Shown one piece after another: positions 6,133 through 37,854 of a DNA stretch of 64,000 nt (position 1 is the first letter of the stretch; each line of letters starts with the position of its first letter). Location: assembly GCA_022561385.1 (NCBI GenBank), contig JADFRG010000003.1:66049-130048 (forward strand), read 5' to 3'. A program made the translations under genes and the position numbers. Below the pieces are notes generated by a model. It was not told the DNA's origin. It was given only the letters and a program-made list of their open reading frames with translations, and ran no database searches. This DNA comes from Chloroflexota bacterium. GTDB taxonomy: Bacteria; Chloroflexota; Anaerolineae; Anaerolineales; E44-bin32.

Positions 6133-6891
6133 CTAAACCTCCATTATCTTTTCGTACCCTACTTCTTCCAGATGTTTTGCGAGATCCGGCCCGCCGGATT
6201 TGTGGATCCGGCCGGCAAGGAGAATGTGGACGAAATCGGGCTTGATGTAGTTCAGGATACGCTGATAGTGAGTAATAATGAGGATTCCAAGGTCTTCGCC
6301 GACGAGTGCGCTGATTCCCTTCGCCACGATGCGCACCGCGTCGATATCCAGTCCGGAATCCGTCTCGTCCAGGATGGCAATTTCGGGCTCCAAAGTAGCG
6401 AGCTGCAGGATCTCGGCCCGCTTCTTTTCCCCTCCGGAAAATCCGTCGTTCAGAAATCGTCCGGCGAACTCGTGCGGGATTTTTAGCAAATCCATCTTGC
6501 CCTTGAGCATCTCCCGAAACTCAGGTACCGGGATCTTGTTAGCATTTCCATTCTCGCCCGTGCGGCGGGCGTTGATCGCCATACGAAGGAAATTGGCTAC
6601 TGAAACCCCCGGGATCGCCACCGGATACTGAAAAGCCAGAAACAGACCCATGCGGGACCGCTCGTCAGGCGACCGTCCCAGGATGCTCTCGCCTTTGAAG
6701 ATCACCTCGCCCTCGGTCACTTCATAGGCGGGGTGACCCATCAAGATATTCGCCAGGGTCGATTTTCCGGCCCCATTGGGGCCCATCAAGGCGTGGATCT
6801 CACCCTGTTTAACCGTAAGATTTACACCCTTGAGAATTTCCTTGCCCTCGATTGAGGCATGTAGATTCTTGATTTCTAGCGTGACAGAAAT
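6133..6891 (-). CDS. sufC: Fe-S cluster assembly ATPase SufC, probably with a non-canonical ATT start
   Basis: Walker [10 protein letters not shown], signature FSGGEKKR, Walker [11 protein letters not shown]. The conserved N-terminus (I)[34 protein letters not shown] lies upstream of the track ATG (6789). In-frame stop at 6906..6904, no ATG/GTG/TTG in between. AAGGAG at 6904..6899 plus a 7-nt spacer leads to ATT at 6891. Confidence 0.9.
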
Positions 6892-7079
6892 TGGATTGCT
6901 CCTTTAAGCACGAACGCGGACGGATTATAGCACGCCGTATAATATTCGTCAATATTCTTTGAAAAATTACCCTCGGGAGAGGTTTACGCCGTAGAATGCT
7001 CGCCGCAGATCGATTTCGACCTTGTTTTCGACCTACTGGCGATATTCCGGACTAATAATTATAGGAAAAATCTGATTTA

Positions 7080-7109
7080 TTGACCTCGGTGCGTATGGGG
7101 TGTTATACT
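7080..7109 (+). promoter_or_regulatory. candidate sigma-70-type promoter of sufR (near-leaderless)
   Basis: TTGACC (7080-7085), 18-nt spacer, TATACT (7104-7109). ATG of sufR at 7119. Confidence 0.35.
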
Positions 7110-7118
7110 CCCCATATC

Positions 7119-7757
7119 ATGGGATCCCCTACACGTGAGGTCATCCTGCGGAGGCTGAAGGAGCAGGCAAAGTGCTCCGTCAACGATCTGGCAGAAGCCG
7201 CCGAGGTTTCGCCCGTGTCCGTGCGCCACCACATTACCGCCTTACTGGCACAAGATTTGGTGGTGTCGGAAGAAGTCAAACACGGCGTGGGTCGGCCCTA
7301 TCACGTGTTTTCTCTGACTGAAAAGGCGTTTGACCTCTATCCCGGGCAATATTTCAAGTTGACCAACCGGTTGCTCGATGAGATCAAAGATCACGTGTCA
7401 GAGGATCTCGTAACCGAGCTGTTCACCGGGGTGGCGAATGCCATGGCGGTCCAGTATGCGTCCCAGCTGGAGGGTCTGTCCCTGGAGGAGCGCCTGCCTC
7501 GCTTAATGGTTATGCTTAGCGAAGAAGGATTTGACGCAGATTATGAGTGGCGAGGGGATGAAGTGATCATCCGCGAACTCGGATGCCCCTATCTTCAGAT
7601 CGGCCGCAAGCACCCCGAGGTCTGCGCAGTGGATACTGGTTTTATCGCCACCGCGCTCGACCTGCCCGCGGAGCGCATCAATTGCCTGTTGGACGGCGAC
7701 ACGCATTGCACCTTCAGCTTGAAGGTGCCAAGCCGCAAGGAGGAACTTCCCGCATGA
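7119..7757 (+). CDS. sufR: SufR-like winged-helix (ArsR/DeoR-type) regulator with C-terminal Cys cluster
   Basis: N-terminal wHTH (SVNDLAEAAEVSPVSVRHHITAL). C-terminal C-x12-C-x19-C-x7-C. Divergent from the suf operon. Confidence 0.75.
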   Translation: MGSPTREVILRRLKEQAKCSVNDLAEAAEVSPVSVRHHITALLAQDLVVSEEVKHGVGRPYHVFSLTEKAFDLYPGQYFKLTNRLLDEIKDHVSEDLVTELFTGVANAMAVQYASQLEGLSLEERLPRLMVMLSEEGFDADYEWRGDEVIIRELGCPYLQIGRKHPEVCAVDTGFIATALDLPAERINCLLDGDTHCTFSLKVPSRKEELPA

Positions 7758-29637: not shown

Positions 29638-30402
29638 TTAGGACCCGCTCGCGGTAAGCAGCGTGCCTTCGCCCGCGGCCAGGCCGGGAAGGTCTACGAT
29701 TCTCACCTGCGACACTCCGCCGCGAAGCGCCTCCGATCCGGCGCGCACTTTGGGGACCATCCCCGCGCGGATCTCGTTCCTGGCGATCAAGCTCTCAGTC
29801 TGACCAATTTCGAGCTGGGGCACGATCCGGCCCGAGCGGTGCACACCTGAAACATCCGACACAAACGCCAGCTCGTGGGCTCCCATCGCCTCGGCGATGG
29901 CCCCGGCGATGTTATCCGCGTTGACGTTATAGATCTGGCCGTCCAGGCCGAGCGAAAGCGGCGATATAACCGGGAGCAGCCCGGCTTCGAGCAGGCTGTA
30001 AAGCAATTCGGTCTCGACTTTGACTATCTCGCCAACCTGTCCCAGGTCCTCGGTGGGGTGATTCAGCTTGCGAACGCGTACCAAACCTGCGTCGAAGCCG
30101 CTCAGGCCAATGGTCTTGATTCCCTTCCGCATCAGCGCCGTTACCAGCTCCGCTCTCAATTCGCCGCAGAGCACCATCAGCGCCGCGCGCATGGCCTCCG
30201 GACCCGTGCGGCGCATCCCTTGTACCCTCTCCGGCTCCGAACCCAGAAGAAGCTGAATTTCGTCTACGGCCTGGCCTCCGCCGTGGACCAGGATCATCGG
30301 CGACGGCAACTCGGCAATCACGCCAGCCAACTGCTCTCGAAATTCCGGCTGGTCCAGTTTGTTCCCGCCGACCTTGATGACTCGCAACGGCATTTTATCC
30401 AC
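29638..30402 (-). CDS. argB: acetylglutamate kinase
   Basis: 254 aa amino-acid kinase fold (VIKVGGN, LVHGGG). Confidence 0.9.
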   Translation of the reverse strand: MDKMPLRVIKVGGNKLDQPEFREQLAGVIAELPSPMILVHGGGQAVDEIQLLLGSEPERVQGMRRTGPEAMRAALMVLCGELRAELVTALMRKGIKTIGLSGFDAGLVRVRKLNHPTEDLGQVGEIVKVETELLYSLLEAGLLPVISPLSLGLDGQIYNVNADNIAGAIAEAMGAHELAFVSDVSGVHRSGRIVPQLEIGQTESLIARNEIRAGMVPKVRAGSEALRGGVSQVRIVDLPGLAAGEGTLLTASGS

Positions 30403-30408
30403 CGGGCT

Positions 30409-31413
30409 CTAGAGCAATCCGGTGGTTTCCTCCAGTCCGAAAACGACGTTCATGTTCTGTATCGCCTGTCCGGCCGCGCCCTTTCGGAGGTTGTCGATCG
30501 CGGCCGTGATCACGAGCATTCCGTCGACTTCGGTCATGCCGATCACACATCGATTGCTGTAGTTGACCTGACGCAGGGTCGCCACCTCGCCCAGAGGGAG
30601 GATCGTGATGAACGGTTCCTCCGCGTACGTCTCAAGGTAGAGATGATGCACCTGCGACTCGACCCAGCCTGAACGCAGCGGGACGTACAGGGTGGAAAGT
30701 AGTCCGCGCGGGATGGGCACGAGGTGCGGGCTGAAGATCAGCCTGAGGTCCGAATCGCCCCAGCGGGCCAGCATCGTCTCCATCTCGGGCAGATGTCGGT
30801 GTGCACGCCCAATGCTGTAGGGACGCAGGTCCTCCGCTACCTCTACAAACTGTGTCGCCAATTTGGGCGTGCGGCCTGCTCCGGACACGCCGGATTTAGC
30901 GTCCACGATCACTCGTCCGCCGACCACAGATTCGAGCAGCAGCGGATATAGAGCGAGCAGCACCGAGGTCGGATAACATCCAGGGTTGGCTACCAGACGG
31001 GCGTCAGGCAGCCGCTCCCGTTCGGTTTCGGTCAGTCCGTAGACCGCTTCGTCGAGCAGTTCCGGGGCAGGATGGCGCTGCCCGTACCATTTCTGGTAAA
31101 GCTCCGGGTCTGCCAGGCGAAAGTCGGCGCTGAGGTCGATCACGCGGGTGCCCTCTTGCAGCGCCTCCGCGGCCACTTCGGCCGACTGCCCATTCGGGAG
31201 ACAGAGAAACACCAGATCCACGTCTTCGATGGGGGCCTGCACCGGATCGATGAGATTGATATCTGGAGCTCCGGGGAAGACCTTCGCCAGGCTCTGATCT
31301 GGACTGGATCGGGAAGTTGCGAATTTGAGCCGGACCTGATCGTGGCGGCCGAGCAACCGGATCAACTCCGCTCCGGTGTAGCCGGTCGCACCCAGAACTC
31401 CAACCTCGATCAT
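30409..31413 (-). CDS. argC: N-acetyl-gamma-glutamyl-phosphate reductase
   Basis: 334 aa. GATGYTG NAD-binding motif and active-site PGCYPTS. Confidence 0.95.
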   Translation of the reverse strand: MIEVGVLGATGYTGAELIRLLGRHDQVRLKFATSRSSPDQSLAKVFPGAPDINLIDPVQAPIEDVDLVFLCLPNGQSAEVAAEALQEGTRVIDLSADFRLADPELYQKWYGQRHPAPELLDEAVYGLTETERERLPDARLVANPGCYPTSVLLALYPLLLESVVGGRVIVDAKSGVSGAGRTPKLATQFVEVAEDLRPYSIGRAHRHLPEMETMLARWGDSDLRLIFSPHLVPIPRGLLSTLYVPLRSGWVESQVHHLYLETYAEEPFITILPLGEVATLRQVNYSNRCVIGMTEVDGMLVITAAIDNLRKGAAGQAIQNMNVVFGLEETTGLL

Positions 31414-31433
31414 GCTGACTCCTATAAATGAAA

Positions 31434-31461
31434 CCGCCAGACCTCGTTGCCGGTCTGGCGG
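31434..31461 (-). terminator. perfect 10-bp stem hairpin plus T-rich tract 20 nt upstream of argC ATG (terminator of the upstream operon or a 5'-UTR attenuator)
   Basis: Minus strand: CCGCCAGACC-ggcaacga-GGTCTGGCGG followed by TTTCATTTAT, then AGGAG and ATG. Confidence 0.4.
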
Positions 31462-31672
31462 GGATTGCGTGCGAATGGTAGTAGCTACTCAGGCAGCCCC
31501 AGAGTCCAGACCAAGGATCCAGTATGGTCGACGATCACGTGGCTGAGGGGCTACGGGCAGTTTCATCGTTGGGAAAGCATATACGATGCCCCCGGCCTTG
31601 TCAACACAACGACCATTTTGTCTGCACCATTGGGTTGGGGCGTGCTTCCGATGTCTCGGGCCGACCTCCCAA

Positions 31673-32359
31673 CTATGCATCGACCAGTCGCCTCGCCTGC
31701 CGGAAGACATTGTGAAACATGGAGCGCGTGAGCCGGCCGGTGAAGGTGTTCTGCTGACTGGGATGGTAGCTCACCAGTAGGTGCAGGCCATCCGGGAGGG
31801 TGCTCAGTGCGCCGTGGGCGAACTTAGGTTTCGGCCGCGGGAGTTCCCCTCCGGCTCCGGCCCAGGCTACCAGGAACCCATCGAAAGCGATCTTGCCCAG
31901 GCAAAGCACAACCCGCAGATGTCGAAGCGCGGCCAGTTCACGAATCAGGAACGTGCGGCAGGTCTCTTTCTCAATTCGACTGGGCTTGTTTGCCGGAGGC
32001 GCACAATGTACGACGGCGGTGATGTAGGCGTCCTTGGGTTTGAGCTCGTGGTCGGTTGTGGCGGAGGGCGATCGATTGGAGAAGTCGTAACGATACATGG
32101 CCTCGAACAGCCATTCCCCGCTGCGATCACCGGTGAACATCCTTCCGGTTCGATTCCCGCCGTGCGCTGCAGGAGCCAGGCCGACAATCATGAGCCTCGC
32201 CTGAGGGTCCCCAAGAGACGGCACCGGCCGGCCCCAGTAGGTTTGGTCGGCAAATCGCCTGGTTTTTCGGGCCGCGATGTCTTCCCGATGGGCCACCAGG
32301 CGTGGGCAGGCGCGGCATCCAATAACTTCTTCCCGGATGGCGGCAAGATCAGATTTCAT
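31673..32359 (-). CDS. uracil-DNA glycosylase, family 5 (UDGb)-like
   Basis: CRACPRL and GLAPAAHGGNRTGRMFTGD motifs. Start is ATG 32359 (MKSDLAAIREE) or TTG 32422. Confidence 0.8.
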   Translation of the reverse strand: MKSDLAAIREEVIGCRACPRLVAHREDIAARKTRRFADQTYWGRPVPSLGDPQARLMIVGLAPAAHGGNRTGRMFTGDRSGEWLFEAMYRYDFSNRSPSATTDHELKPKDAYITAVVHCAPPANKPSRIEKETCRTFLIRELAALRHLRVVLCLGKIAFDGFLVAWAGAGGELPRPKPKFAHGALSTLPDGLHLLVSYHPSQQNTFTGRLTRSMFHNVFRQARRLVDA

Positions 32360-32424
32360 TTTGGGCCGTTCAATTGGAGGCACAGACGGAATATTTCGCG
32401 TACGCGGCCGGTTCGCATGCAACG

Positions 32425-33225
32425 TTAAGGCAGCGTTGCCATCAGCAATCCATAACCAAGCGTGCCTTCTTCGATCGTCCTGGCCGCGCTTGCCGCCACA
32501 ATTCTGGCTTCTTCGAAATCAACCCCTGGTATTTCGAGCTTTTTTACTTTGAATATCAACTCGGCGCCGAGCAGACTGGCGCGCACGTTTCTAACCGTCG
32601 TTTCAAGCACTTCCGGATGCGGCTCGATGTGATCAATTCTAAAGCCGGCTTCTTCGAGCAGGGCCGCATAACGATCCGAGGGAAGCGCCTCTGAGATGCA
32701 CACGATCTGGGCCAGGAGCCCGGATAATTCTGGCGGAAGCGGGCCCGACCGCGTGACGTCACTCAAGCCCACTCGACCTCCGGCTCTGAGCACGCGCGCA
32801 AACTCCCCGGCCGCAGTGTGTTTGTCTGGGAAGGTACAGAATGAACATTCACAAATTAGGGCATCGAAACTGCCGTCCGGAAAGGGCAATTTCTCGGAAT
32901 CTCCGAGTTCGAACCGCACGAGATGAGCCAGGCCGGCCTCTTGGGCGCGCCGTCGCGCCTGGCCCACGAGTTCTTCACTGTAGTCGATACCCACGACCTC
33001 GCATCCGAATTTCTCTGCCAGGTAAACCGCGCTCGCACCTGTGCCGGAGGCAACATCCAGCACCCGCTGTCCGGGGCGAAGATCGAGCAATTTCCCCAAC
33101 CTTTCGGTGAGCTCGAGACCGCCCGGGTGAAACGATTCTCCCAGCAGCAGTCGCGCCCAATCGCTCTCGTAAAGCGCGGCACAGCAGGTCTTGATCTCGG
33201 CGGCCGCGGGGGCGGAAGTTATCAC
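32425..33225 (-). CDS. class I SAM-dependent methyltransferase, ArsM-like with conserved Cys sets
   Basis: SAM motif I VLDVASGTGASAV. Cys sets TCC (N-terminal), ICECSFCTF and VCISEA align by eye with ArsM NCVINL and VGCLAG regions. GGRVGLSDVTRSGPLPPEL...YAALLEEAGF resembles ArsM GGRFAVSDVV...YVAKLAAAGF. Start GTG 33225 overlaps the radical SAM stop (GTGA). Confidence 0.75.
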   Translation of the reverse strand: MITSAPAAAEIKTCCAALYESDWARLLLGESFHPGGLELTERLGKLLDLRPGQRVLDVASGTGASAVYLAEKFGCEVVGIDYSEELVGQARRRAQEAGLAHLVRFELGDSEKLPFPDGSFDALICECSFCTFPDKHTAAGEFARVLRAGGRVGLSDVTRSGPLPPELSGLLAQIVCISEALPSDRYAALLEEAGFRIDHIEPHPEVLETTVRNVRASLLGAELIFKVKKLEIPGVDFEEARIVAASAARTIEEGTLGYGLLMATLP

Positions 33226-34760
33226 TTGCCTGCACCATTCAAATTGAAGGAGAAGGTCAGGGGTTCGGGATCGAATGCAAGCCCTTCCTGCTCGGCCTTC
33301 CGTCGCGATCGCTGGCGCTGCGCCAGCTGCTGGCGGGTCTGCTCCCGGTAGCCGATATTGTTGTAGGCACAGAAGGGGATCTGCTTGCCATCCGGCAGCA
33401 GGATTACCTTGCAGCACTTCATTACATTCTTTTGGTTGAAGGTCCAGGGGTCAAGGAAATCCTGGAGGGCGATCATGAACACGTGATCCGTGATGGCCGC
33501 GAGCTCCGACTCCTCCAGCAGGTCGCAGATGGAGCAGGAGAGTGCGAAGTCGCGCCCCGACTTTTCCGTTCCCGGGACGGCCGAGGAAGACCAAAGCGCC
33601 TCGAGCGTGGTCTGGATCGTCTCGGCGCTAAACTCACCGAGATCCGGCACGATCCGATTTGACACATAGTCAAGGTAGTCCTCGACCTTTAGGAAACGTG
33701 GCAGAGGCAGGACCGTCTCACCCTCGACATAGGCATAAGTCATCGAGTTACAGGTGGGGAAGCAGCAAGGGACCGGGAAGAAGTCTTTCTCCACAAAAAG
33801 CCCATCCGTCTGCGCTTCAATCAACTTGATAATGTCAGGGTTCGTCATTCGAGTCAGCGGGTCATGGTCCTCATGACGGCCTGAGTGAAATGCAGGTTGA
33901 AATGTGATCCCGCGGACCGCTGGATGTTTCAGCCCAAATCTGACGATCTCGCCTAGCTCATGCTCATTGACATCTCGCTCAACCGCCGGCACGAGAATGA
34001 CCGTACAGCCGATCTCCGCCAGCCGATCCAGTGCGCGCAGCTTCTGATCCAGAATATCGGCCTCGCCCCTTAGGATGCGGTAGGTTTCCGACTCGAAGCC
34101 GTCAAACTGAAAATAGATTGCGGGGCGCGGATCGATCCCGGCCAGCTGCTCGAGAAATCCGTCGTCATCGGCGATGCGTTTGCCGTTGGTATTGAGCATA
34201 ACGCGTCGGATATTCCGACGGGTGGCAGCCTCCAGCATCGGGATGATGTCTGGATGGATCGTGGGTTCCCCTCCCGAAAACTGAACCGCCTCCGGTTGTC
34301 CCTCGGTTTCCACGAAGTGATCCAGGATTCCTTCCACTTCCTCTAGCGTGAGATTGAAACCCACGCCGGCGTCCGCAAAGCAGAGCGGGCAATCCATGTT
34401 GCATGCGGTATTTACCTCGATGATGCCCAAGCAAGCATGCTGTTGATGGTCGGGGCAGAGACCGCAGTCGTGCGGGCAGCCGTGAACGATATCGGTCGAA
34501 AACTTAAGCGGAATCGTGCCCGGTTTGTTGTAACGCGCGGAGCCCACGTAGGCCTCGGCGTCTCCATAGATCAGCGCCTCGAAGGGTCCATGCTCCGGAC
34601 AGCGCTTCCGCATGTAGACCTTGTCGTCACGCAGCAGAATGTGAGCATCGATCACCCGCCGGCAGACCGGGCAGATGCTGCGCGTGAGCTCAAAAAATAC
34701 GGAATCCGAATCTTGCTTTACTGTGTTGGGCGAAGGTGAGATCATCAAAGGGGTGTCCAT
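33222..34760 (-). CDS. multi-cluster radical SAM enzyme with N-terminal zinc-ribbon (COG1964 / Tes-MJ0619-like architecture)
   Basis: 512 aa. N-terminal CPVCRR...KRCPEHGPF, extra cluster motif GCPHDCGLCPDHQQHAC, radical SAM motif CNMDCPLC. Confidence 0.8.
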   Translation of the reverse strand: MDTPLMISPSPNTVKQDSDSVFFELTRSICPVCRRVIDAHILLRDDKVYMRKRCPEHGPFEALIYGDAEAYVGSARYNKPGTIPLKFSTDIVHGCPHDCGLCPDHQQHACLGIIEVNTACNMDCPLCFADAGVGFNLTLEEVEGILDHFVETEGQPEAVQFSGGEPTIHPDIIPMLEAATRRNIRRVMLNTNGKRIADDDGFLEQLAGIDPRPAIYFQFDGFESETYRILRGEADILDQKLRALDRLAEIGCTVILVPAVERDVNEHELGEIVRFGLKHPAVRGITFQPAFHSGRHEDHDPLTRMTNPDIIKLIEAQTDGLFVEKDFFPVPCCFPTCNSMTYAYVEGETVLPLPRFLKVEDYLDYVSNRIVPDLGEFSAETIQTTLEALWSSSAVPGTEKSGRDFALSCSICDLLEESELAAITDHVFMIALQDFLDPWTFNQKNVMKCCKVILLPDGKQIPFCAYNNIGYREQTRQQLAQRQRSRRKAEQEGLAFDPEPLTFSFNLNGAGK

Positions 34761-34896
34761 TCTTTAACTCCGACTAACTGTAGTGAAATCCGCTATGGCT
34801 GGGTGTGAGCGCCCATACAACAAAGGACCTACGATAATGTTGCCTGCCCCAGCCGAGCTGCTTCTCGGTAGAATCCGTTTCTGGAAGGCGGGGAGT

Positions 34897-34970
34897 CACT
34901 CGCGAGGCTCGTACTAAAAGCAGACACTCGTGAGGCGCGTGCTCCAAGCAAACATTCGCGGGCCTCGTAC
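34897..34970. repeat. 2.6 copies of a 28-bp direct repeat (18-bp core plus 10-bp spacer) in the divergent intergenic region
   Basis: Cores: cactcgcgaggctcgtac (34897), cactcgtgaggcgcgtgc (34925), cattcgcgggcctcgtac (34953). Each pair is 15/18 identical. Spacers are taaaagcaga and tccaagcaaa. Confidence 0.6.
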
Positions 34971-35031
34971 AGCCGGCCGGAACTCGCCGGCCGGGCACCG
35001 TTGGATATCATGCCGAAAAGGACCTCATCCA

Positions 35032-36483
35032 TTGGTAGCTGAATCAGAACCCCGGAAACTAAAGATAGTGCAATCTCTGGTTTTTTACCCGCGCGGCGGC
35101 AGCGCTCAAGTCGTACGCTACTTATCGCGGGCGCTAATCGACCTGGGCCACCAGGTGCACCTGGCGACGGGTTCGCTGAGCGACGGGGACCCGGAGCATG
35201 AGGCGAGCAGGTTTTACGGCGATATCCCGCTCACCATGGTCGACTACACGGAGGCCTGGCGAGGGTTCAAGGAGGGCAGAAACCCCATTTCTCCGGAATG
35301 GGATGCGCCATTTCATCCGAGTTATGAGGACAAGGCGGGCGTACCCGACCGGGCATTCTACAAGGTCAATTCCGATGAATACGCCGCGCTCCGCCGTTCC
35401 TGGGAAGCTCTGTTTCAGGATATCAAGCGGCGCTTCCAGCCGGACCTGATCCATCTGCATCATTTGAACCACATGCACCTGGCCGCGGCGGAGGTTTACC
35501 GGGAGCTGCCAAGAGCGAGCCAGCTGCACGGCACCGAGATCAAGATGTTGGAGAACCTCGCCAACCTGGAAGAGGAGAAGCTTGAGGAGGCCCCCTTCCG
35601 AAGCTTATGGCGAGGGATCATGACCGAGGCCGCCCAATCGGTGAAGCATTTCTTTGCCATCAGCCCCGACGTCCGCCAACGGGGAATGACCGAATTCGGA
35701 CTTGAAGACCAGGACCTCACCGTCATACCTAATGGGGTGGATATTTCGCTCTTCAAACCACGCGGCTGGACGGACACCAAGAAATTGGACTTCTTACGAC
35801 AGATCCTGCTGGAGCAGCCGCGTGGCTGGGATGAGAGCGGCGTGGCCGGGAGTGTGGGTTATTCGGAGAGTGACCTGAAGCGTTTTGGCACCGCTTCGGG
35901 TGGCCTCAAGCCCCTGCTAATGTTTGTCGGTCGCTTTCTTGACTTCAAACGCGTCCCGCTGTTAATTGAAGCGGTGGCTGATGTCAACGCTCGGTTCGAA
36001 ATGGGTGATGAATGGCCTCCCTTCAACCTGCTCGTTTGGGGCGGGATGCCCGGCGAATGGGAAGGGCGGCACCCTTACACGGTTGCACGCGAATTAGGGC
36101 TCACGAACGTATTCTTTACCGGGTGGTTACCGCATGCAATCCTGTCGAAAGGGCTCAATCTAGCCGACGTGTTCGTCGCGCCTTCCTATTATGAGCCGTT
36201 CGGCCAGGTGTTCCTTGAGGCGATGGCGTCCGGAATGCCGGTGATCGCCACTCGCAGCGGAGGCCCAACCAGCTTTGTCCTTGATACTGGGCCAAATGCG
36301 AATGGCTGGTTCGCGGAGGTGGACGATGTTCAGTCTCTGGCGGAAACCCTGTATTCGGCGCTCGAGGATGGCCCGGAGAGAAGTCGGCGGGGAGCTAACG
36401 CGCTGGAGCTGGTTCGGAAGGAATATAGCTGGGCGGGAATCGCAAGGCATTATGTTGCCGCCTACCGCCAACTGATCGAGTGA
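35032..36483 (+). CDS. GT4-family (GT-B) glycosyltransferase
   Basis: EPFGQVFLEAMASGMPVIATRSGGP motif. N-terminus is LKIVQSLVFYPRGGS. Start uncertain: TTG 35032 or GTG 35068, since the track start 34930 covers the repeat region. Confidence 0.8.
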   Translation: MVAESEPRKLKIVQSLVFYPRGGSAQVVRYLSRALIDLGHQVHLATGSLSDGDPEHEASRFYGDIPLTMVDYTEAWRGFKEGRNPISPEWDAPFHPSYEDKAGVPDRAFYKVNSDEYAALRRSWEALFQDIKRRFQPDLIHLHHLNHMHLAAAEVYRELPRASQLHGTEIKMLENLANLEEEKLEEAPFRSLWRGIMTEAAQSVKHFFAISPDVRQRGMTEFGLEDQDLTVIPNGVDISLFKPRGWTDTKKLDFLRQILLEQPRGWDESGVAGSVGYSESDLKRFGTASGGLKPLLMFVGRFLDFKRVPLLIEAVADVNARFEMGDEWPPFNLLVWGGMPGEWEGRHPYTVARELGLTNVFFTGWLPHAILSKGLNLADVFVAPSYYEPFGQVFLEAMASGMPVIATRSGGPTSFVLDTGPNANGWFAEVDDVQSLAETLYSALEDGPERSRRGANALELVRKEYSWAGIARHYVAAYRQLIE

Positions 36484-36758
36484 CGGCAGTTGGCGAGCGT
36501 CCGTACACAGTTCGAGCCTACTGGCAGCAAACAATTGTGTGCTAATTTATATTTTCGAGGATTAATCCCGGCGCCTCCCAACCCGCGACTTTGCGATGCG
36601 CGTCAAGGCGGGAAGCGCCTTGCAGCAGTCTGGCTCAGTTCATGATGGCTATGCGCAGTCGAATTCGCCGGCGGTCCACAACCGGCCATCCGTCGGCCTT
36701 CGCTGCCACCGCGCTCCAGACCCAAGTCGAAGAGTCACGGTTAGGCCTTACCTAACGA

Positions 36759-36788
36759 TTGACAAGCCGTGCCTCACGCGCGTAGAGT
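36759..36788 (+). promoter_or_regulatory. candidate promoter giving a leaderless kinase mRNA
   Basis: TTGACA (36759-36764), 18-nt spacer, TAGAGT (36783-36788). ATG at 36796, 7 nt after the -10. Confidence 0.4.
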
Positions 36789-36795
36789 GACCCCA

Positions 36796-37854
36796 ATGAA
36801 CATCGCACGTTATGAGGTTTTCGAACAACTCGGCCGAGGCGGAATGGCCACGGTGTATCGCGCTCGCGATCCGCGGTTCAAACGCCAGGTGGCGATCAAG
36901 TTGCTGCCGCGTGAATTCCTGCACGACCCAAATTTCAAGGCCCGCTTCGTGCGAGAAGCTCAGACCGTCGCGCGGCTAGAACATCCCGCCATCGTGCCGG
37001 TTCACGACTTCGGCGAACATGAGGGCCAGCCGTACCTGGTCATGCGGCATATGGGAGGTGGCTCCCTGGCCGATTGGATCGAGCGCGGCCCTTTGCGCGT
37101 TGAGGAGGCGGCCGCCGTCGTTATGCGGGTGGCCGCCGCACTGGACTATGCACACGGTCGGGGCGTGATCCATCGCGACCTGAAGCCAGGAAATATCCTC
37201 TTCGACGAGGCCGGCCATGCCTACCTGGCCGATTTCGGAATCGCCCAGTTGGCGGAGGCCACCCTGGCACTCACCAAGAGCGGGGTCTACATCGGGACAC
37301 CCGCCTACATGAGCCCCGAGCAGGTGCGTGGTGATCTCGAGCTCGATGGACGCAGCGACGTCTATGCGCTTGGCATCATCCTTTTCGAAATGCTCACCGG
37401 GAGGCAACCTTACACGGCCGACACGCCTGCTAAGCTCATGATGAAACATGTGCTGGACCCGGTTCCAAGCCTTCGTGACCTCGACCCGGCGCAACTGCCG
37501 GCCGCCGATCAGATCGTGGCACAGGCCATGGCCAAGGACCGGGAGGAGCGCTTTGCGGGCGCGGCCGAGCTCGGTGAAGCGGTTGGATCCTTAGTCGGAG
37601 ACACTTCCTCCCAGCTCATTGCCGAGCGTCCGATCACCGGTGTGGGAAAACCGCCACGTCGCGCGAGCTTGCGCCACCGCTGGTCGTGGATTCTGGCCGG
37701 CCTGCTACTGCTCGGCACGGTAGGCGGCGCACTTGCGATGGGAGCGGCCGCGCGCGGCGAAACCAACGCCGGATACCGCGCCTGCGCTTGTAATAGCCAC
37801 GGAGACCGAGGTCCCCTCATCGACCCCGACGGTTGTGCCCAGCCATACTCCTGA
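36796..37854 (+). CDS. Hanks-type Ser/Thr protein kinase with TM segment (reading frame breaks just after the TM)
   Basis: GRGGMATVY, VAIKLL, HRDLKPGNILF, DFG and SPE all present. TM segment WILAGLLLLGTVGGALAMGAAA. Confidence 0.85.
   Translation: MNIARYEVFEQLGRGGMATVYRARDPRFKRQVAIKLLPREFLHDPNFKARFVREAQTVARLEHPAIVPVHDFGEHEGQPYLVMRHMGGGSLADWIERGPLRVEEAAAVVMRVAAALDYAHGRGVIHRDLKPGNILFDEAGHAYLADFGIAQLAEATLALTKSGVYIGTPAYMSPEQVRGDLELDGRSDVYALGIILFEMLTGRQPYTADTPAKLMMKHVLDPVPSLRDLDPAQLPAADQIVAQAMAKDREERFAGAAELGEAVGSLVGDTSSQLIAERPITGVGKPPRRASLRHRWSWILAGLLLLGTVGGALAMGAAARGETNAGYRACACNSHGDRGPLIDPDGCAQPYS

What the first reader, a model, noticed from the sequence alone, without database searches (positions are those of the whole stretch)
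32425..34760. Translationally coupled module: multi-cluster zinc-ribbon radical SAM enzyme plus Cys-rich ArsM-like methyltransferase
Seen in sequence:
- The 512-aa radical SAM ORF ends with TGA 33224..33222, which overlaps GTG 33225..33223 (GTGA). That GTG opens a 266-aa methyltransferase.
- The radical SAM protein has an N-terminal CPVC...CPEHG ribbon, an extra GCPHDCGLCPDHQQHAC cluster motif and the CNMDCPLC radical SAM motif.
- From memory this architecture matches the COG1964 branch, which includes archaeal tetraether lipid synthase (Tes/GDGT-MAS, MJ0619-like).
- The methyltransferase resembles arsenite methyltransferase ArsM in its SAM-binding core and in the segment GGRVGLSDVTRSGPLPPEL...YAALLEEAGF.
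- It carries Cys sets (TCC, ICECSFC, VCIS) at or near the positions of the As(III)-binding cysteines of ArsM.

Established knowledge: known ArsM-partnered radical SAM enzymes (ArsS for arsenosugars, ArsL for arsinothricin) act on metalloid substrates. The radical SAM enzyme here appears to be of a different architecture from ArsS.

Inference: the pair could make an uncharacterised C-As/C-S or methylated lipid/metalloid product. The module is followed closely by a family-5 UDG gene on the same strand.
Basis: partly seen in the sequence, partly recalled or inferred. Interest (0 to 1): 0.7.

Follow-up and report, generated by a model that had tools for sequence, protein, structure and literature searches.

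The report
Conserved Tes-like radical SAM/methyltransferase pair
Two overlapping genes encode a relative of the archaeal tetraether-lipid synthase and a cysteine-rich, arsenite-methyltransferase-like enzyme; the two are almost always adjacent in hundreds of soil bacteria, so these bacterial "Tes homologues" probably do an uncharacterised two-enzyme reaction rather than plain lipid coupling.

Summary
A 512-aa radical SAM ORF (33222-34760, minus strand) ends in a GTGA overlap with a 266-aa methyltransferase (MT) ORF (32425-33225).

- **Radical SAM enzyme:** it is a full-length homologue of GDGT-MAS/Tes (PDB 7TOL, 6.7e-84) and keeps all four metal sites. It scores below the curated cut-offs for both Tes (337/450) and TrsS (324/490). 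It has five extra invariant cysteines.
- **Methyltransferase:** it scores just under the DVU_1556-family cut-off (150.8/155), and ArsM models come second. Six cysteines are essentially invariant in 72 orthologues. C127 and C176 align with the two As(III)-binding cysteines of ArsM.
- **Pairing:** it is near-obligate. The MT follows the radical SAM gene in 74 of 75 genome loci from five phyla. The radical SAM gene precedes the MT in 71 of 71 metagenome loci.
- **Relatives:** some occur as radical SAM–ArsM-like fusions, others as TrsS clusters with DVU_1556 MTs.
- **Neighbours:** disulfide oxidoreductases recur next to the pair. Ars genes do not.

Function is untested. My best guess is C–S (or C–metalloid) bond formation on an alkyl substrate, followed by methylation of that soft atom. 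The family-5 UDG gene downstream is incidental.

The parts
33222..34760 (-). Radical SAM enzyme, 512 aa, of the GDGT-MAS/Tes-TrsS superfamily (clade unassigned)
   Evidence: Pfam Zn_ribbon_HMPTM plus Radical_SAM. NCBIfam Tes 337.5 against a cut-off of 450, and TrsS 324.5 against 490. PDB 7TOL 6.7e-84 over residues 25-477. Foldseek top hits are 7tol/7tom at 1.5e-30. The exact sequence is NCBI MCH7609448.1, named 'radical SAM protein'.
34590..34673 (-). Rubredoxin-like zinc-ribbon motif C30-X2-C33-X20-C54-X2-H57
   Evidence: Same spacing as the GDGT-MAS motif C9X2C12X20C33X2H36 (PMC9433317). Invariant in 77 orthologues.
34431..34478 (-). N-terminal auxiliary [4Fe-4S] motif C95, C99, C102 with H105/H108, plus the extra invariant C110
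   Evidence: Aligns with GDGT-MAS C73/C77/C80 plus His. Invariant in 77 orthologues.
34380..34403 (-). Radical SAM CX3CX2C motif (C120, C124, C127)
   Evidence: Read from the translation. Lies within the Pfam Radical_SAM match at residues 115-275. Invariant.
33750..33767 (-). Cysteines C332-C333-x3-C337. C332 and C333 are absent from GDGT-MAS and from a bona fide Tes representative
   Evidence: HMMER alignment to 7TOL and BLASTP to P0326. Invariant in 77 orthologues.
33525..33536 (-). Extra invariant C409-x2-C412 pair, absent from GDGT-MAS and Tes
33369..33422 (-). C-terminal auxiliary-cluster motif M447-K-C449-C450...C464. M447 aligns with the labile Met439 of GDGT-MAS
   Evidence: Alignment to 7TOL and PMC9433317. 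The cysteines are invariant in 77 orthologues. M447 is invariant in the 25-sequence alignment A2.
33222..33225 (-). GTGA stop/start overlap (translational coupling)
   Evidence: Read from the sequence. The same 4-nt overlap occurs in 33 of 75 orthologous loci.
32425..33225 (-). Cysteine-rich class I SAM methyltransferase, 266 aa, of the DVU_1556-like/ArsM lineage
   Evidence: NCBIfam DVU_1556 family 150.8 against a cut-off of 155, and ArsM PRK11873 107.3 against 263. Pfam Methyltransf_11/25/31. AF2 model with pLDDT 84.8.
33181..33186 (-). N-terminal C14-C15 pair in the motif K-x-C-C
   Evidence: Present in 71 of 72 orthologues. Absent from DVU_1556-type MTs.
33037..33063 (-). SAM-binding motif I, VLDVASGTG (residues 55-63)
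   Evidence: Invariant L56, D57, G61, G63. Lies in the core of the Pfam MT matches.
32836..32853 (-). C125-E-C127-x-x-C130 after strand beta-4. C127 aligns with the ArsM 'ISNC' cysteine
   Evidence: HMMER alignments to ArsM 5evj and AS3MT 8xt7. Conserved in 71-72 of 72 orthologues. E126-C127 is shared with DVU_1556-type MTs and with the fused ArsM-like domain.
32698..32700 (-). C176, which aligns with the second As(III)-binding cysteine of ArsM ('GEC')
   Evidence: Present in 72 of 72 orthologues.
34761..34929 (.). Intergenic region between the radical SAM gene and a divergent GT4 glycosyltransferase gene. Presumed promoter region of the module
   Evidence: Position only. No sigma-70-like site and no Rfam match was found here.

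Best explanation
The two genes form one functional unit: a two-enzyme system, or three enzymes where a disulfide oxidoreductase is also encoded.

**Shown**
- The radical SAM enzyme has the complete GDGT-MAS/Tes machinery: a rubredoxin-like site, an N-terminal auxiliary cluster, the radical SAM cluster, and a C-terminal auxiliary cluster with its labile methionine.
- The MT belongs to the ArsM/DVU_1556 lineage. It has two invariant cysteines at the positions ArsM uses to hold As(III), and four more invariant cysteines.

**Inferred mechanism**
1. The radical SAM enzyme abstracts a hydrogen atom from an unactivated, probably terminal, alkyl carbon of a hydrophobic substrate. As in GDGT-MAS, the carbon radical is captured by a soft atom at the C-terminal cluster and its extra cysteines.
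2. Instead of being resolved into a C-C bond, the C-X bond is kept. I favour X = sulfur from the cluster, with arsenic or another metalloid as the main alternative.
3. The MT binds that atom through its thiolates and methylates it.
4. Cysteine pairs oxidised in the cycle are reset by the co-encoded disulfide oxidoreductases: a MerA/Lpd-like flavoprotein, VKOR or TrxR in aerobes, and HdrA/HdrD-like proteins in anaerobic relatives.

It is not an orthologue of the tetraether synthase.
For: **Coupling**
- GTGA overlap. The MT is downstream in 74 of 75 genome loci from Chloroflexota, Acidobacteriota, Armatimonadota, Dormibacterota and Gemmatimonadota.
- The radical SAM gene is upstream in 71 of 71 metagenome loci. 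The 4-nt overlap recurs in 33 of 75 loci.

**Fusions and related clusters**
- P0399, P0400 and P0404 fuse a TrsS-like radical SAM domain to an MT domain. That MT domain scores 240.6 of 263 on the ArsM model and carries CC, GCG, ISNC and SAC motifs.
- True TrsS loci carry a DVU_1556 MT in the same cluster: one gene away in L082, directly upstream in L086, three genes away in L083.

**Radical SAM chemistry**
- All GDGT-MAS metal ligands, including the labile Met, are conserved.
- GDGT-MAS is known to form a C-S(cluster) intermediate (PMC9433317).
- Five extra invariant cysteines are present.

**MT**
- C127 and C176 align with the ArsM As(III) ligands. They are shared by this clade, by most of the DVU_1556 MTs examined and by the fused ArsM-like domain.
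- Six cysteines are conserved in 71-72 of 72 orthologues.

**Redox partners**
- PNDR occurs in 41 loci and VKOR in 26. Redoxin, PrdB-like, SelL-related and CcdA-like genes each occur in 9-12 loci.
- Of 122 loci with at least 1.5 kb of flank, 69 have at least one such neighbour, often with overlapping stop and start codons.
- HdrA/HdrD-like genes sit next to the anaerobic relatives.
Against: - Nothing here identifies the substrate or the product. No tool gives the geometry of the cysteines.
- The MT's overall fold matches small-molecule C-, N- and O-methyltransferases (RebM, TleD, PEAMT, GPP-MT) better than ArsM.
- The ArsM 'YGCG' cysteine is missing.
- The window itself has none of the redox partner genes.
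- VKOR is normally a thiol oxidant facing the outside of the cell, which fits a 'reset by reduction' role poorly.
- The extra cysteines could simply bind one more Fe-S cluster or zinc.
- The thiol-redox neighbours could reflect general redox housekeeping.
- The radical SAM model is only of moderate confidence (pLDDT 64.7).
Confidence: 0.4

Rival explanations
1. Organo-metalloid pathway. The MT is a true metalloid methyltransferase acting on As(III)/MAs(III), Sb, Se or Te. The Tes-like radical SAM enzyme attaches an alkyl or lipid carbon radical to the metalloid, as ArsS and ArsL do with other carbon radicals. The product would be an arsenolipid-like compound.
For: - C127 and C176 align with the As(III) ligands of ArsM.
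- ArsM-type models are the second-best NCBIfam hits for every MT of the clade tested.
- In archaeal fusions the MT domain is almost a canonical ArsM, scoring 240.6 of 263 and carrying all four cysteine motifs.
- Established knowledge: the ArsM cycle needs a disulfide reductant, which fits the PNDR and TrxR neighbours.
- Established knowledge: two other radical SAM families (ArsS, ArsL) already partner with ArsM.
- A PiT/PHO4 oxyanion transporter lies nearby in 9 loci.
Against: - No ars genes are among the recurrent neighbours of 161 loci.
- The ArsM score is far below cut-off (107 of 263), and the 'YGCG' cysteine needed for the first As(III) methylation is absent.
- Identity of 66-88% across five phyla, in more than 567 species genomes, looks like a core function rather than a detoxification trait.
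Confidence: 0.2
2. Bacterial tetraether / membrane-spanning lipid synthase. The radical SAM enzyme couples two fatty-acyl or alkyl tails tail-to-tail, giving iso-diabolic acid or brGDGT, as the lipid-biomarker literature proposes for bacterial Tes homologues. The MT is an accessory lipid-modifying enzyme acting on a head group or chain.
For: - Full-length homology to GDGT-MAS with all cofactor sites.
- The literature hypothesis for bacterial Tes homologues in Acidobacteria and Chloroflexota (PMC8941075; PMC10087280; PMC11868695).
- The clade occurs in Bryobacterales and Terriglobia.
- A CDP-alcohol phosphatidyltransferase gene lies next to the pair in 14-15 Ktedonobacteria loci.
- The MT fold resembles PEAMT, CFA-synthase and prenyl C-MT enzymes.
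Against: - It fails the curated Tes cut-off (337 of 450), whereas a real Tes representative scores 556. Identity to that Tes is only 29%.
- It lacks a roughly 20-residue insert of Tes and gains five invariant cysteines.
- C-C coupling by GDGT-MAS needs no methyltransferase (established knowledge), yet here the MT is obligate (145 of 146 loci) and is fused to the radical SAM domain in relatives.
- The invariant ArsM-position cysteines and the disulfide-oxidoreductase partners have no role in this model.
- From my own knowledge, cultured Ktedonobacteria that carry the pair are not known to make membrane-spanning lipids.
Confidence: 0.12
3. Cofactor or metalloenzyme maturation. Like the TrsS/DVU_155x cluster that sits beside Mo or W aldehyde oxidoreductases, the pair builds or modifies a sulfur-containing cofactor or ligand, or a low-molecular-weight thiol. 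The co-encoded flavoprotein would then be that compound's disulfide reductase.
For: - TrsS clusters lie next to a Mo aldehyde oxidoreductase with XdhC and MocA-like genes, or next to W-AOR genes.
- The MT is nearest to the DVU_1556 family.
- A glutathione/mycothione-reductase-like PNDR is translationally coupled to the pair in several phyla.
Against: - No Mo- or W-enzyme genes and no cofactor genes recur near this clade.
- The window has arg genes, a UDG and a GT4 gene as neighbours.
- The TrsS score is far below cut-off (324 of 490).
- The Tes-type active site is a narrow hydrophobic tunnel in GDGT-MAS, which suits an alkyl chain better than a polar cofactor.
Confidence: 0.1

Closest known systems
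GDGT-MAS / Tes (tetraether lipid synthase; MJ0619, MA_1486; PDB 7TOL/7TOM; NCBIfam NF045702)
   Same: - Same four-domain architecture and the same metal-binding motifs.
- These are the rubredoxin-like CX2CX20CX2H site, the N-terminal cluster with three Cys plus His, the CX3CX2C motif, and the C-terminal cluster with its labile Met.
- The alignment covers the full length. It is by far the best sequence and fold match.
   Different: - 29-33% identity, and 337 bits against a cut-off of 450.
- Lacks a roughly 20-residue insert before C337.
- Has five extra invariant cysteines: C110, C332, C333, C409 and C412.
- Bacterial rather than archaeal.
- Always paired with a cysteine-rich MT, which the established Tes reaction does not require.
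TrsS radical SAM (seleno)protein with the DVU_1556-family methyltransferase (NCBIfam NF045646, NF045667)
   Same: - The radical SAM enzyme belongs to the same superfamily and is partnered with an MT of the same lineage.
- The E126-C127 motif is shared with the DVU_1556 MTs; C176 is shared with two of the three examined.
- A disulfide-reductase-type protein is encoded alongside.
   Different: - Both proteins here score below the family cut-offs (324 of 490; 150.8 of 155).
- TrsS clusters also encode C_GCAxxG_C_C, DUF7479, an AMP-ligase, XdhC, MocA-like and HdrA-like proteins. They sit beside Mo or W aldehyde oxidoreductases in anaerobes.
- None of those genes accompanies this clade.
- This clade's MT adds an N-terminal CC pair, C125 and C130.
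- The function of TrsS is itself unknown. I could not read the paper that describes it.
ArsM with ArsS (arsenosugar) or ArsL (arsinothricin)
   Same: - A radical SAM enzyme is teamed with a cysteine-rich class I MT.
- Two MT cysteines align with the As(III) ligands of ArsM.
- Archaeal relatives fuse a near-canonical ArsM domain to the radical SAM enzyme.
   Different: - The radical SAM enzyme belongs to a different family: Tes and TrsS are its best NCBIfam matches.
- The MT fails the ArsM cut-off and lacks the YGCG cysteine.
- There is no ars gene context.
Sulfur-inserting radical SAM enzymes that use an auxiliary cluster (LipA, BioB, MiaB/RimO)
   Same: - The logic of the proposed mechanism: a carbon radical attacks a sulfur of an auxiliary [4Fe-4S] cluster.
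- MiaB and RimO then deliver a methylthio group (established knowledge; the comparison is made in PMC9433317).
   Different: - No specific homology beyond the radical SAM core (Foldseek E of about 1e-4).
- Here methylation would be done by a separate class I MT, not by a second SAM in the same active site.
C10P/C10Q-type radical SAM plus MT-fold two-component systems
   Same: A radical SAM enzyme and an MT-fold protein act together on one substrate (the paper is cited in PMC13459092).
   Different: From my own knowledge, that system uses a HemN-like radical SAM family, has no cysteine-rich site, and occurs in natural-product gene clusters.

Membership tests
Tes / GDGT-MAS tetraether lipid synthase (NF045702) | Four-domain architecture with a rubredoxin-like site, an N-terminal auxiliary cluster, the radical SAM cluster, and a C-terminal auxiliary cluster with a labile Met | tested here: met
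   The motifs C30X2C33X20C54X2H57, C95/C99/C102 plus His, C120/C124/C127 and M447/C449/C450/C464 align with those of 7TOL and are conserved. Foldseek top hit is 7tol.
Tes / GDGT-MAS tetraether lipid synthase (NF045702) | Score at or above the curated equivalog cut-off of 450 bits | tested here: not met
   337.5 bits. A genuine Tes representative, P0326, scores 556. Identity to P0326 is 29%.
Tes / GDGT-MAS tetraether lipid synthase (NF045702) | Catalyses C(sp3)-C(sp3) coupling of lipid tails, and the host makes membrane-spanning lipids | not testable with these tools
   This needs lipidomics or enzymology. The host is a Chloroflexota (Anaerolineae-like) MAG.
TrsS radical SAM (seleno)protein (NF045646) | Score at or above the curated cut-off of 490 bits | tested here: not met
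   324.5 bits.
TrsS radical SAM (seleno)protein (NF045646) | DVU_155x-type gene cluster (HdrA-like, DUF7479, C_GCAxxG_C_C, AMP-ligase, XdhC, MocA-like) beside a Mo or W aldehyde oxidoreductase | tested here: not met
   That cluster is seen in L082, L083 and L086. The window neighbours are a UDG, argC/argB and a GT4 gene. None of the cluster's genes is among the recurrent neighbours of 161 loci.
DVU_1556 family methyltransferase (NF045667) | Score at or above the curated cut-off of 155 bits | tested here: not met
   150.8 bits for the window MT. Orthologues score 119-140, whereas MTs next to true TrsS score 186-206.
DVU_1556 family methyltransferase (NF045667) | Encoded next to a Tes/TrsS-superfamily radical SAM enzyme, with a shared (R/H)PGG motif and E-C motif | tested here: met
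ArsM arsenite methyltransferase (NF008823 / PRK11873) | Score at or above the curated cut-off of 263 bits | tested here: not met
   107.3 bits. PDB ArsM 5evj gives only 31.7 bits. No ArsM is in the top 50 Foldseek hits.
ArsM arsenite methyltransferase (NF008823 / PRK11873) | The two core As(III)-binding cysteines (CmArsM C174 and C224; hAS3MT C156 and C206; numbering from my own knowledge) | tested here: met
   C127 aligns with the ISNC cysteine and C176 with the GEC cysteine in HMMER alignments to 5evj and 8xt7. Both are present in 72 of 72 orthologues.
ArsM arsenite methyltransferase (NF008823 / PRK11873) | The 'YGCG' cysteine (CmArsM C72), required for methylation of inorganic As(III) | tested here: not met
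   The corresponding region reads LLGESFHPGG. The GCG cysteine of the fused ArsM-like domain aligns with L28.
ArsM arsenite methyltransferase (NF008823 / PRK11873) | An N-terminal cysteine (CmArsM C44 equivalent) | tested here: inconclusive
   A conserved C14-C15 pair exists, but no tool aligned the N-terminus to ArsM. The HMM matches start at residue 30-46.
ArsM arsenite methyltransferase (NF008823 / PRK11873) | Arsenic-resistance gene context (arsR, arsC, acr3/arsB) | tested here: not met
   No such gene cluster is among the recurrent neighbours.
ArsM arsenite methyltransferase (NF008823 / PRK11873) | Methylates As(III) | not testable with these tools
   This needs an enzyme assay.
Mss (bacterial membrane-spanning lipid synthase, Thermotoga) | Homology to the characterised Mss radical SAM enzymes | not tested
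Mss is only described in the literature read here.

The most novel reading that the evidence does not exclude
The Tes-like radical SAM enzyme and its ArsM-lineage MT make lipids or alkanes whose terminal carbon carries a methylated soft atom, such as a methylthio or dimethylarsinoyl group. That would be a new class of C(sp3)-heteroatom bond-forming enzymes. If the atom is arsenic, it could be the missing route to arsenic-containing hydrocarbons and fatty acids. As a corollary, many 'Tes homologues' counted as brGDGT producers, and many 'arsM' genes counted in soil metagenomes, would be this system instead.
Probability: 0.15. Interest if true: 0.9.

Novelty: new variant of a known kind. Interest (0 to 1): 0.68.

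Why it matters
- **Lipid biomarkers.** Bacterial homologues of the archaeal tetraether synthase are used as genetic evidence for who makes brGDGTs, the lipids behind widely used palaeotemperature and pH proxies (PMC8941075, PMC10087280, PMC11868695). This work shows that a very large, cross-phylum clade of those homologues (at least 567 species genomes) is locked to an ArsM-lineage, cysteine-rich MT and often to a disulfide oxidoreductase. It fails the curated Tes threshold. Counting such genes as Tes is therefore unsafe.
- **Arsenic surveys.** JGI names many of these MTs 'arsenite methyltransferase', which may inflate arsM surveys.
- **Enzymology.** The pair, its fused archaeal relatives and the TrsS clusters define a recurrent radical SAM + MT + disulfide reductase triad of unknown chemistry. 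The triad is directly testable in cultured Ktedonobacter and Dictyobacter strains.

Tried and rejected
- **Anti-phage defence.** PADLOC gave only generic radical SAM core (pVip) and MT (mad2) matches. Rejected.
- **Riboswitch or leader RNA.** No Rfam match in window 31000-37000 at E <= 1, nor in 12 orthologous loci at gathering score.
- **Redox partner genes in the window.** A tblastn with PNDR, VKOR, SelL-related, DUF3179, TrxR, PrdB-like, CDP-OH transferase and others found nothing in the 64 kb.
- **True mercuric reductase.** The recurrent PNDR has only the CxxxxC pair and no MerA C-terminal CC. It scores below the MerA cut-off.
- **Structural proof of ArsM membership.** Foldseek put RebM, AtmM, TleD, MitM and PEAMT first, with no ArsM in the top 50.
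- **Literature.** The paper that defines TrsS (PMC12013261) is not held. Searches for TrsS, DVU_1556, IPR034474, arsenolipid plus radical SAM, and C-GCAxxG-C-C found no characterisation of this pair.
- **UDG as part of the module.** It is not among the recurrent neighbours in 161 loci.
- **The 330-aa MT ORF starting at 33417.** Rejected in favour of the 33225 start, on the basis of orthologue N-termini.
- **Cysteine geometry.** The structure tools return no coordinates, so the spatial clustering of the cysteines could not be measured.

Full report
**1. The observation**

On the minus strand, an ATG at 34760 opens a 512-aa ORF that ends with TGA at 33224-33222. The GTG at 33225-33223 overlaps that stop (GTGA) and opens a 266-aa ORF ending at 32425. 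A longer 330-aa reading from 33417 is a by-product of an upstream in-frame GTG inside the radical SAM gene. Orthologue N-termini all begin about 10-20 residues before the K-x-C-C motif, which supports the 33225 start.

**2. The radical SAM enzyme**

- Pfam finds the HMPTM/MJ0619-type zinc ribbon plus a Radical_SAM domain.
- The best solved structure is GDGT-MAS (7TOL), at 6.7e-84 over residues 25-477. A moderate-confidence AF2 model (pLDDT 64.7) also finds 7tol/7tom first, at 1.5e-30. The next hit, MoaA, is at 9e-8.
- All GDGT-MAS metal sites described in PMC9433317 are present:
  - rubredoxin-like site: C30X2C33X20C54X2H57;
  - N-terminal cluster: C95/C99/C102 plus His;
  - radical SAM cluster: C120/C124/C127;
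  - C-terminal cluster: M447/C449/C450/C464, where M447 aligns with the labile Met439.
- The cysteines are invariant in 77 orthologues, and M447 is invariant in the 25-sequence alignment A2.
- The protein scores 337.5 bits against the Tes model (cut-off 450) and 324.5 against TrsS (cut-off 490). A genuine Tes representative scores 556 and is only 29% identical to the window protein.
- Compared with GDGT-MAS and that Tes, this clade lacks a roughly 20-residue insert before C337. It has five additional invariant cysteines: C110, C332, C333, C409 and C412.
- A full HMMER scan of 1.84 billion representatives finds 701 clusters at E < 1e-30. Of 20 representatives tested, only one passes the Tes cut-off and none passes the TrsS cut-off.
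- So the superfamily has a large unassigned sector, and this protein belongs to it.

**3. The methyltransferase**

- It is a class I SAM MT.
- Its best NCBIfam match is the DVU_1556 family, at 150.8 bits against a cut-off of 155. Several ArsM-type models follow (PRK11873 at 107 of 263), ahead of UbiE-type models. Three orthologues from other phyla behave the same way, scoring 119-140.
- Against PDB sequences, and by fold (AF2 model, pLDDT 84.8), the closest proteins are PEAMT, MitM, RebM/AtmM, TleD and GPP-MT, not ArsM.
- Even so, HMMER aligns C127 with the ArsM 'ISNC' cysteine and C176 with the 'GEC' cysteine in both Chlamydomonas ArsM and human AS3MT. From established knowledge, these are the two core As(III) ligands.
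- In 72 orthologues from at least five phyla, C127, C130 and C176 are invariant. C14, C15 and C125 are present in 71 of 72, and C75 in 68 of 72.
- The ArsM 'YGCG' cysteine is absent; the sequence there reads HPGG.
- The E126-C127 motif is shared by this clade, by the DVU_1556-type MTs examined and by an archaeal fused ArsM-like domain, and C176 by most of them. The N-terminal CC pair, C125 and C130 are specific to this clade.

**4. Co-occurrence**

The best 80 are 66-88% identical. They come from Chloroflexota (57 loci), Acidobacteriota (17), Armatimonadota (2), Dormibacterota (2) and Gemmatimonadota (1); one further locus comes from an unclassified uncultured bacterium. The Chloroflexota include cultured Ktedonobacter, Dictyobacter, Tengunoibacter and Ktedonosporobacter.
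- The MT lies immediately downstream on the same strand in 74 of the 75 loci that extend past the radical SAM gene. The single exception is L036.
- The stop and start overlap by 4 nt in 33 loci and by 1-23 nt in 13 more.
- In the reverse direction, a metagenome scan with the MT alignment found 585 relatives. In 71 of the 71 best loci with upstream sequence, the radical SAM gene is directly upstream.

**5. Relatives tell the same story in other forms**

- Homologues of a near-TrsS representative include fusion proteins (P0399, 724 aa; also P0400 and P0404). In P0399 the radical SAM domain scores 459 of 490 on TrsS. The MT domain scores 240.6 of 263 on the ArsM model and carries CC, GCG, ISNC and SAC motifs.
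- Proteins that NCBI names TrsS were examined in Desulfovibrio sp. Fe33, Fusibacter ferrireducens and a Chloroflexota MAG. Each sits in a cluster that contains a DVU_1556-family MT (186-206 bits), an HdrA-like flavoprotein, DUF7479 and an AMP-ligase. Two of the three clusters also carry a C_GCAxxG_C_C protein and XdhC/MocA-like genes. All three lie beside Mo or W aldehyde oxidoreductases.
- The fusion locus and an archaeal locus carry HdrD-like CCG-domain proteins.

**6. Other neighbours of this clade**

I pooled 161 loci and counted recurrent neighbours.

| Neighbour | Loci |
|---|---|
| MerA/lipoamide-dehydrogenase-like flavoprotein (PNDR) with only the CxxxxC pair | 41 |
| VKOR | 26 |
| CDP-alcohol phosphatidyltransferase (Ktedonobacteria only) | 15 |
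| TlpA-like redoxin | 12 |
| PrdB/GrdB-like | 10 |
| SelL-related redox protein | 9 |
| CcdA/DsbD-TM | 9 |
| PiT/PHO4 transporter | 9 |

- Of the PNDR genes, 23 are on the same strand within 150 nt of the pair, several with overlapping stop and start codons. Of the VKOR genes, 20 are immediately after the MT.
- TrxR-mycoredoxin fusions appeared in 6 of the first 81 loci.
- Of 122 loci with at least 1.5 kb of flank, 69 have at least one thiol-disulfide oxidoreductase neighbour.
- No ars genes recur.
- The window itself has only the two-gene core. A family-5 UDG follows it, then a terminator-like hairpin and arg genes. A divergent GT4 glycosyltransferase gene precedes it.
- No riboswitch and no defence-system signal was found.

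**7. Interpretation**

What is shown:
- The pair is a real, strongly conserved, translationally coupled unit.
- The radical SAM enzyme has the complete GDGT-MAS catalytic apparatus but is not a Tes or a TrsS by curated criteria.
- The MT is of the ArsM/DVU_1556 lineage, with a cysteine-rich active-site region.
- A triad of radical SAM enzyme, MT and disulfide oxidoreductase recurs from anaerobic archaea to aerobic soil bacteria.

What is inferred:
- GDGT-MAS traps its carbon radical on a sulfur of the C-terminal cluster. ArsM-lineage MTs hold a soft atom on cysteine thiolates and methylate it, generating a disulfide that must be reduced (established knowledge).
- The most economical reading is therefore C-X bond formation on an unactivated alkyl carbon, followed by methylation of X.
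- I favour X = sulfur because of the thiol-redox context and the absence of ars genes. Arsenic or another metalloid is the main alternative, given the near-canonical ArsM domain in the fusions.
- I give this reading 0.4, the specific organo-metalloid version 0.2, a plain Tes-type lipid coupler with an accessory MT 0.12, and a cofactor- or thiol-maturation role 0.1.

**8. Novelty and importance**

- Public annotation of these proteins is generic: 'radical SAM protein' and 'class I SAM-dependent methyltransferase'. JGI calls some of the radical SAM enzymes 'pterin dimethyltransferase' and many of the MTs 'arsenite methyltransferase'.
- The literature treats bacterial Tes homologues as candidate brGDGT synthases without experimental support and does not mention the MT partner. 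The GDGT-MAS paper notes bacterial homologues of unknown function.
- I found no description of this pair. The related TrsS and DVU_1556 families exist as NCBIfam models, but I could not read the paper behind them.
- I rate the finding a new variant of a known kind.
- It matters for three reasons: it questions Tes-homologue-based inference of brGDGT producers, it questions arsM-based surveys, and it points to untested radical SAM chemistry in cultured, tractable organisms.

Noticed in passing
window 31673-32359 (ATG) or 31673-32422 (TTG), minus strand: Family-5-type uracil-DNA glycosylase directly downstream of the MT. It has a Pfam UDG domain and scores below the family-4 cut-offs. Its best PDB match is 2D3Y at 3.3e-57, full length. 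It is not conserved next to the pair in other loci, so the adjacency is probably incidental or a local operon feature.
   Followed up: yes
window 31434-31461, minus strand: Terminator-like GC-rich hairpin with a T-run, between the UDG gene and argC. It suggests that radical SAM, MT and UDG could form one transcript here.
   Followed up: partly
window 29638-31413, minus strand: The ORFs at 30409-31413 and 29638-30402 read like argC (N-acetyl-gamma-glutamyl-phosphate reductase) and argB (acetylglutamate kinase). This judgement comes from the translations only and was not tested with family models.
   Followed up: no
window 34930-36483, plus strand: Divergent 517-aa GT4 glycosyltransferase. It shows only weak, sub-threshold similarity to BshA/MshA-type thiol-biosynthesis glycosyltransferases. 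It is not conserved next to the pair elsewhere.
   Followed up: partly
window 36769-37854, plus strand: ORF with Ser/Thr protein kinase motifs (GRGGMATVY..., HRDLKPGN) and a C-terminal hydrophobic segment. Read from the translation only.
   Followed up: no
L084 6001-8175; proteins P0399, P0400, P0404: Archaeal (Conexivisphaerales-like) fusion of a TrsS-like radical SAM domain with a near-canonical ArsM domain (240.6 of 263 bits). An HdrD-like CCG-domain gene overlaps its start. A second radical SAM gene and a second MT gene follow.
   Followed up: partly
L082, L083, L086 (true TrsS loci): TrsS sits in a conserved cluster with an HdrA-like flavoprotein, DUF7479, a DVU_1556 MT and an AMP-ligase; L082 and L083 also carry C_GCAxxG_C_C, XdhC and MocA-like/HD genes. 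The cluster is next to a Mo aldehyde oxidoreductase in Desulfovibrio and Fusibacter, and next to two W-type AOR genes in a Chloroflexota MAG. The function of this cluster is unknown.
   Followed up: partly
L139 4837-6003 and 8 other loci; also L001 9710-10840: A PiT/PHO4-family oxyanion transporter recurs downstream of the pair. YjeF_N (NAD(P)HX epimerase domain) recurs in 7 loci, and also in L001. Their meaning is unclear.
   Followed up: no
L046 about 6570-7360; L056 about 6620-7360: In a Terriglobia MAG (L046) and a Bryobacteraceae MAG (L056) the MT is split over two reading frames, giving two tblastn segments. This is either an assembly frameshift or a pseudogene.
   Followed up: no
L036 1021-2631: The only genome locus in which the radical SAM gene (72% identical) is not followed by the MT. 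A convergent 581-aa ORF with an N-terminal hydrophobic segment follows instead. The MT may lie elsewhere in that MAG.
   Followed up: partly
L006, L014, L018-L020, L023, L026-L029, L041, L042 (Ktedonobacteria): A class-specific extended cluster surrounds the pair: a CDP-alcohol phosphatidyltransferase, two small multi-pass membrane proteins, the PNDR and a second class I MT. This is a possible link to phospholipid metabolism, but it is confined to one class.
   Followed up: partly
L141 1957-2229: The single ArsC-like (LMW-PTP type) match found near the pair among 161 loci.
   Followed up: no
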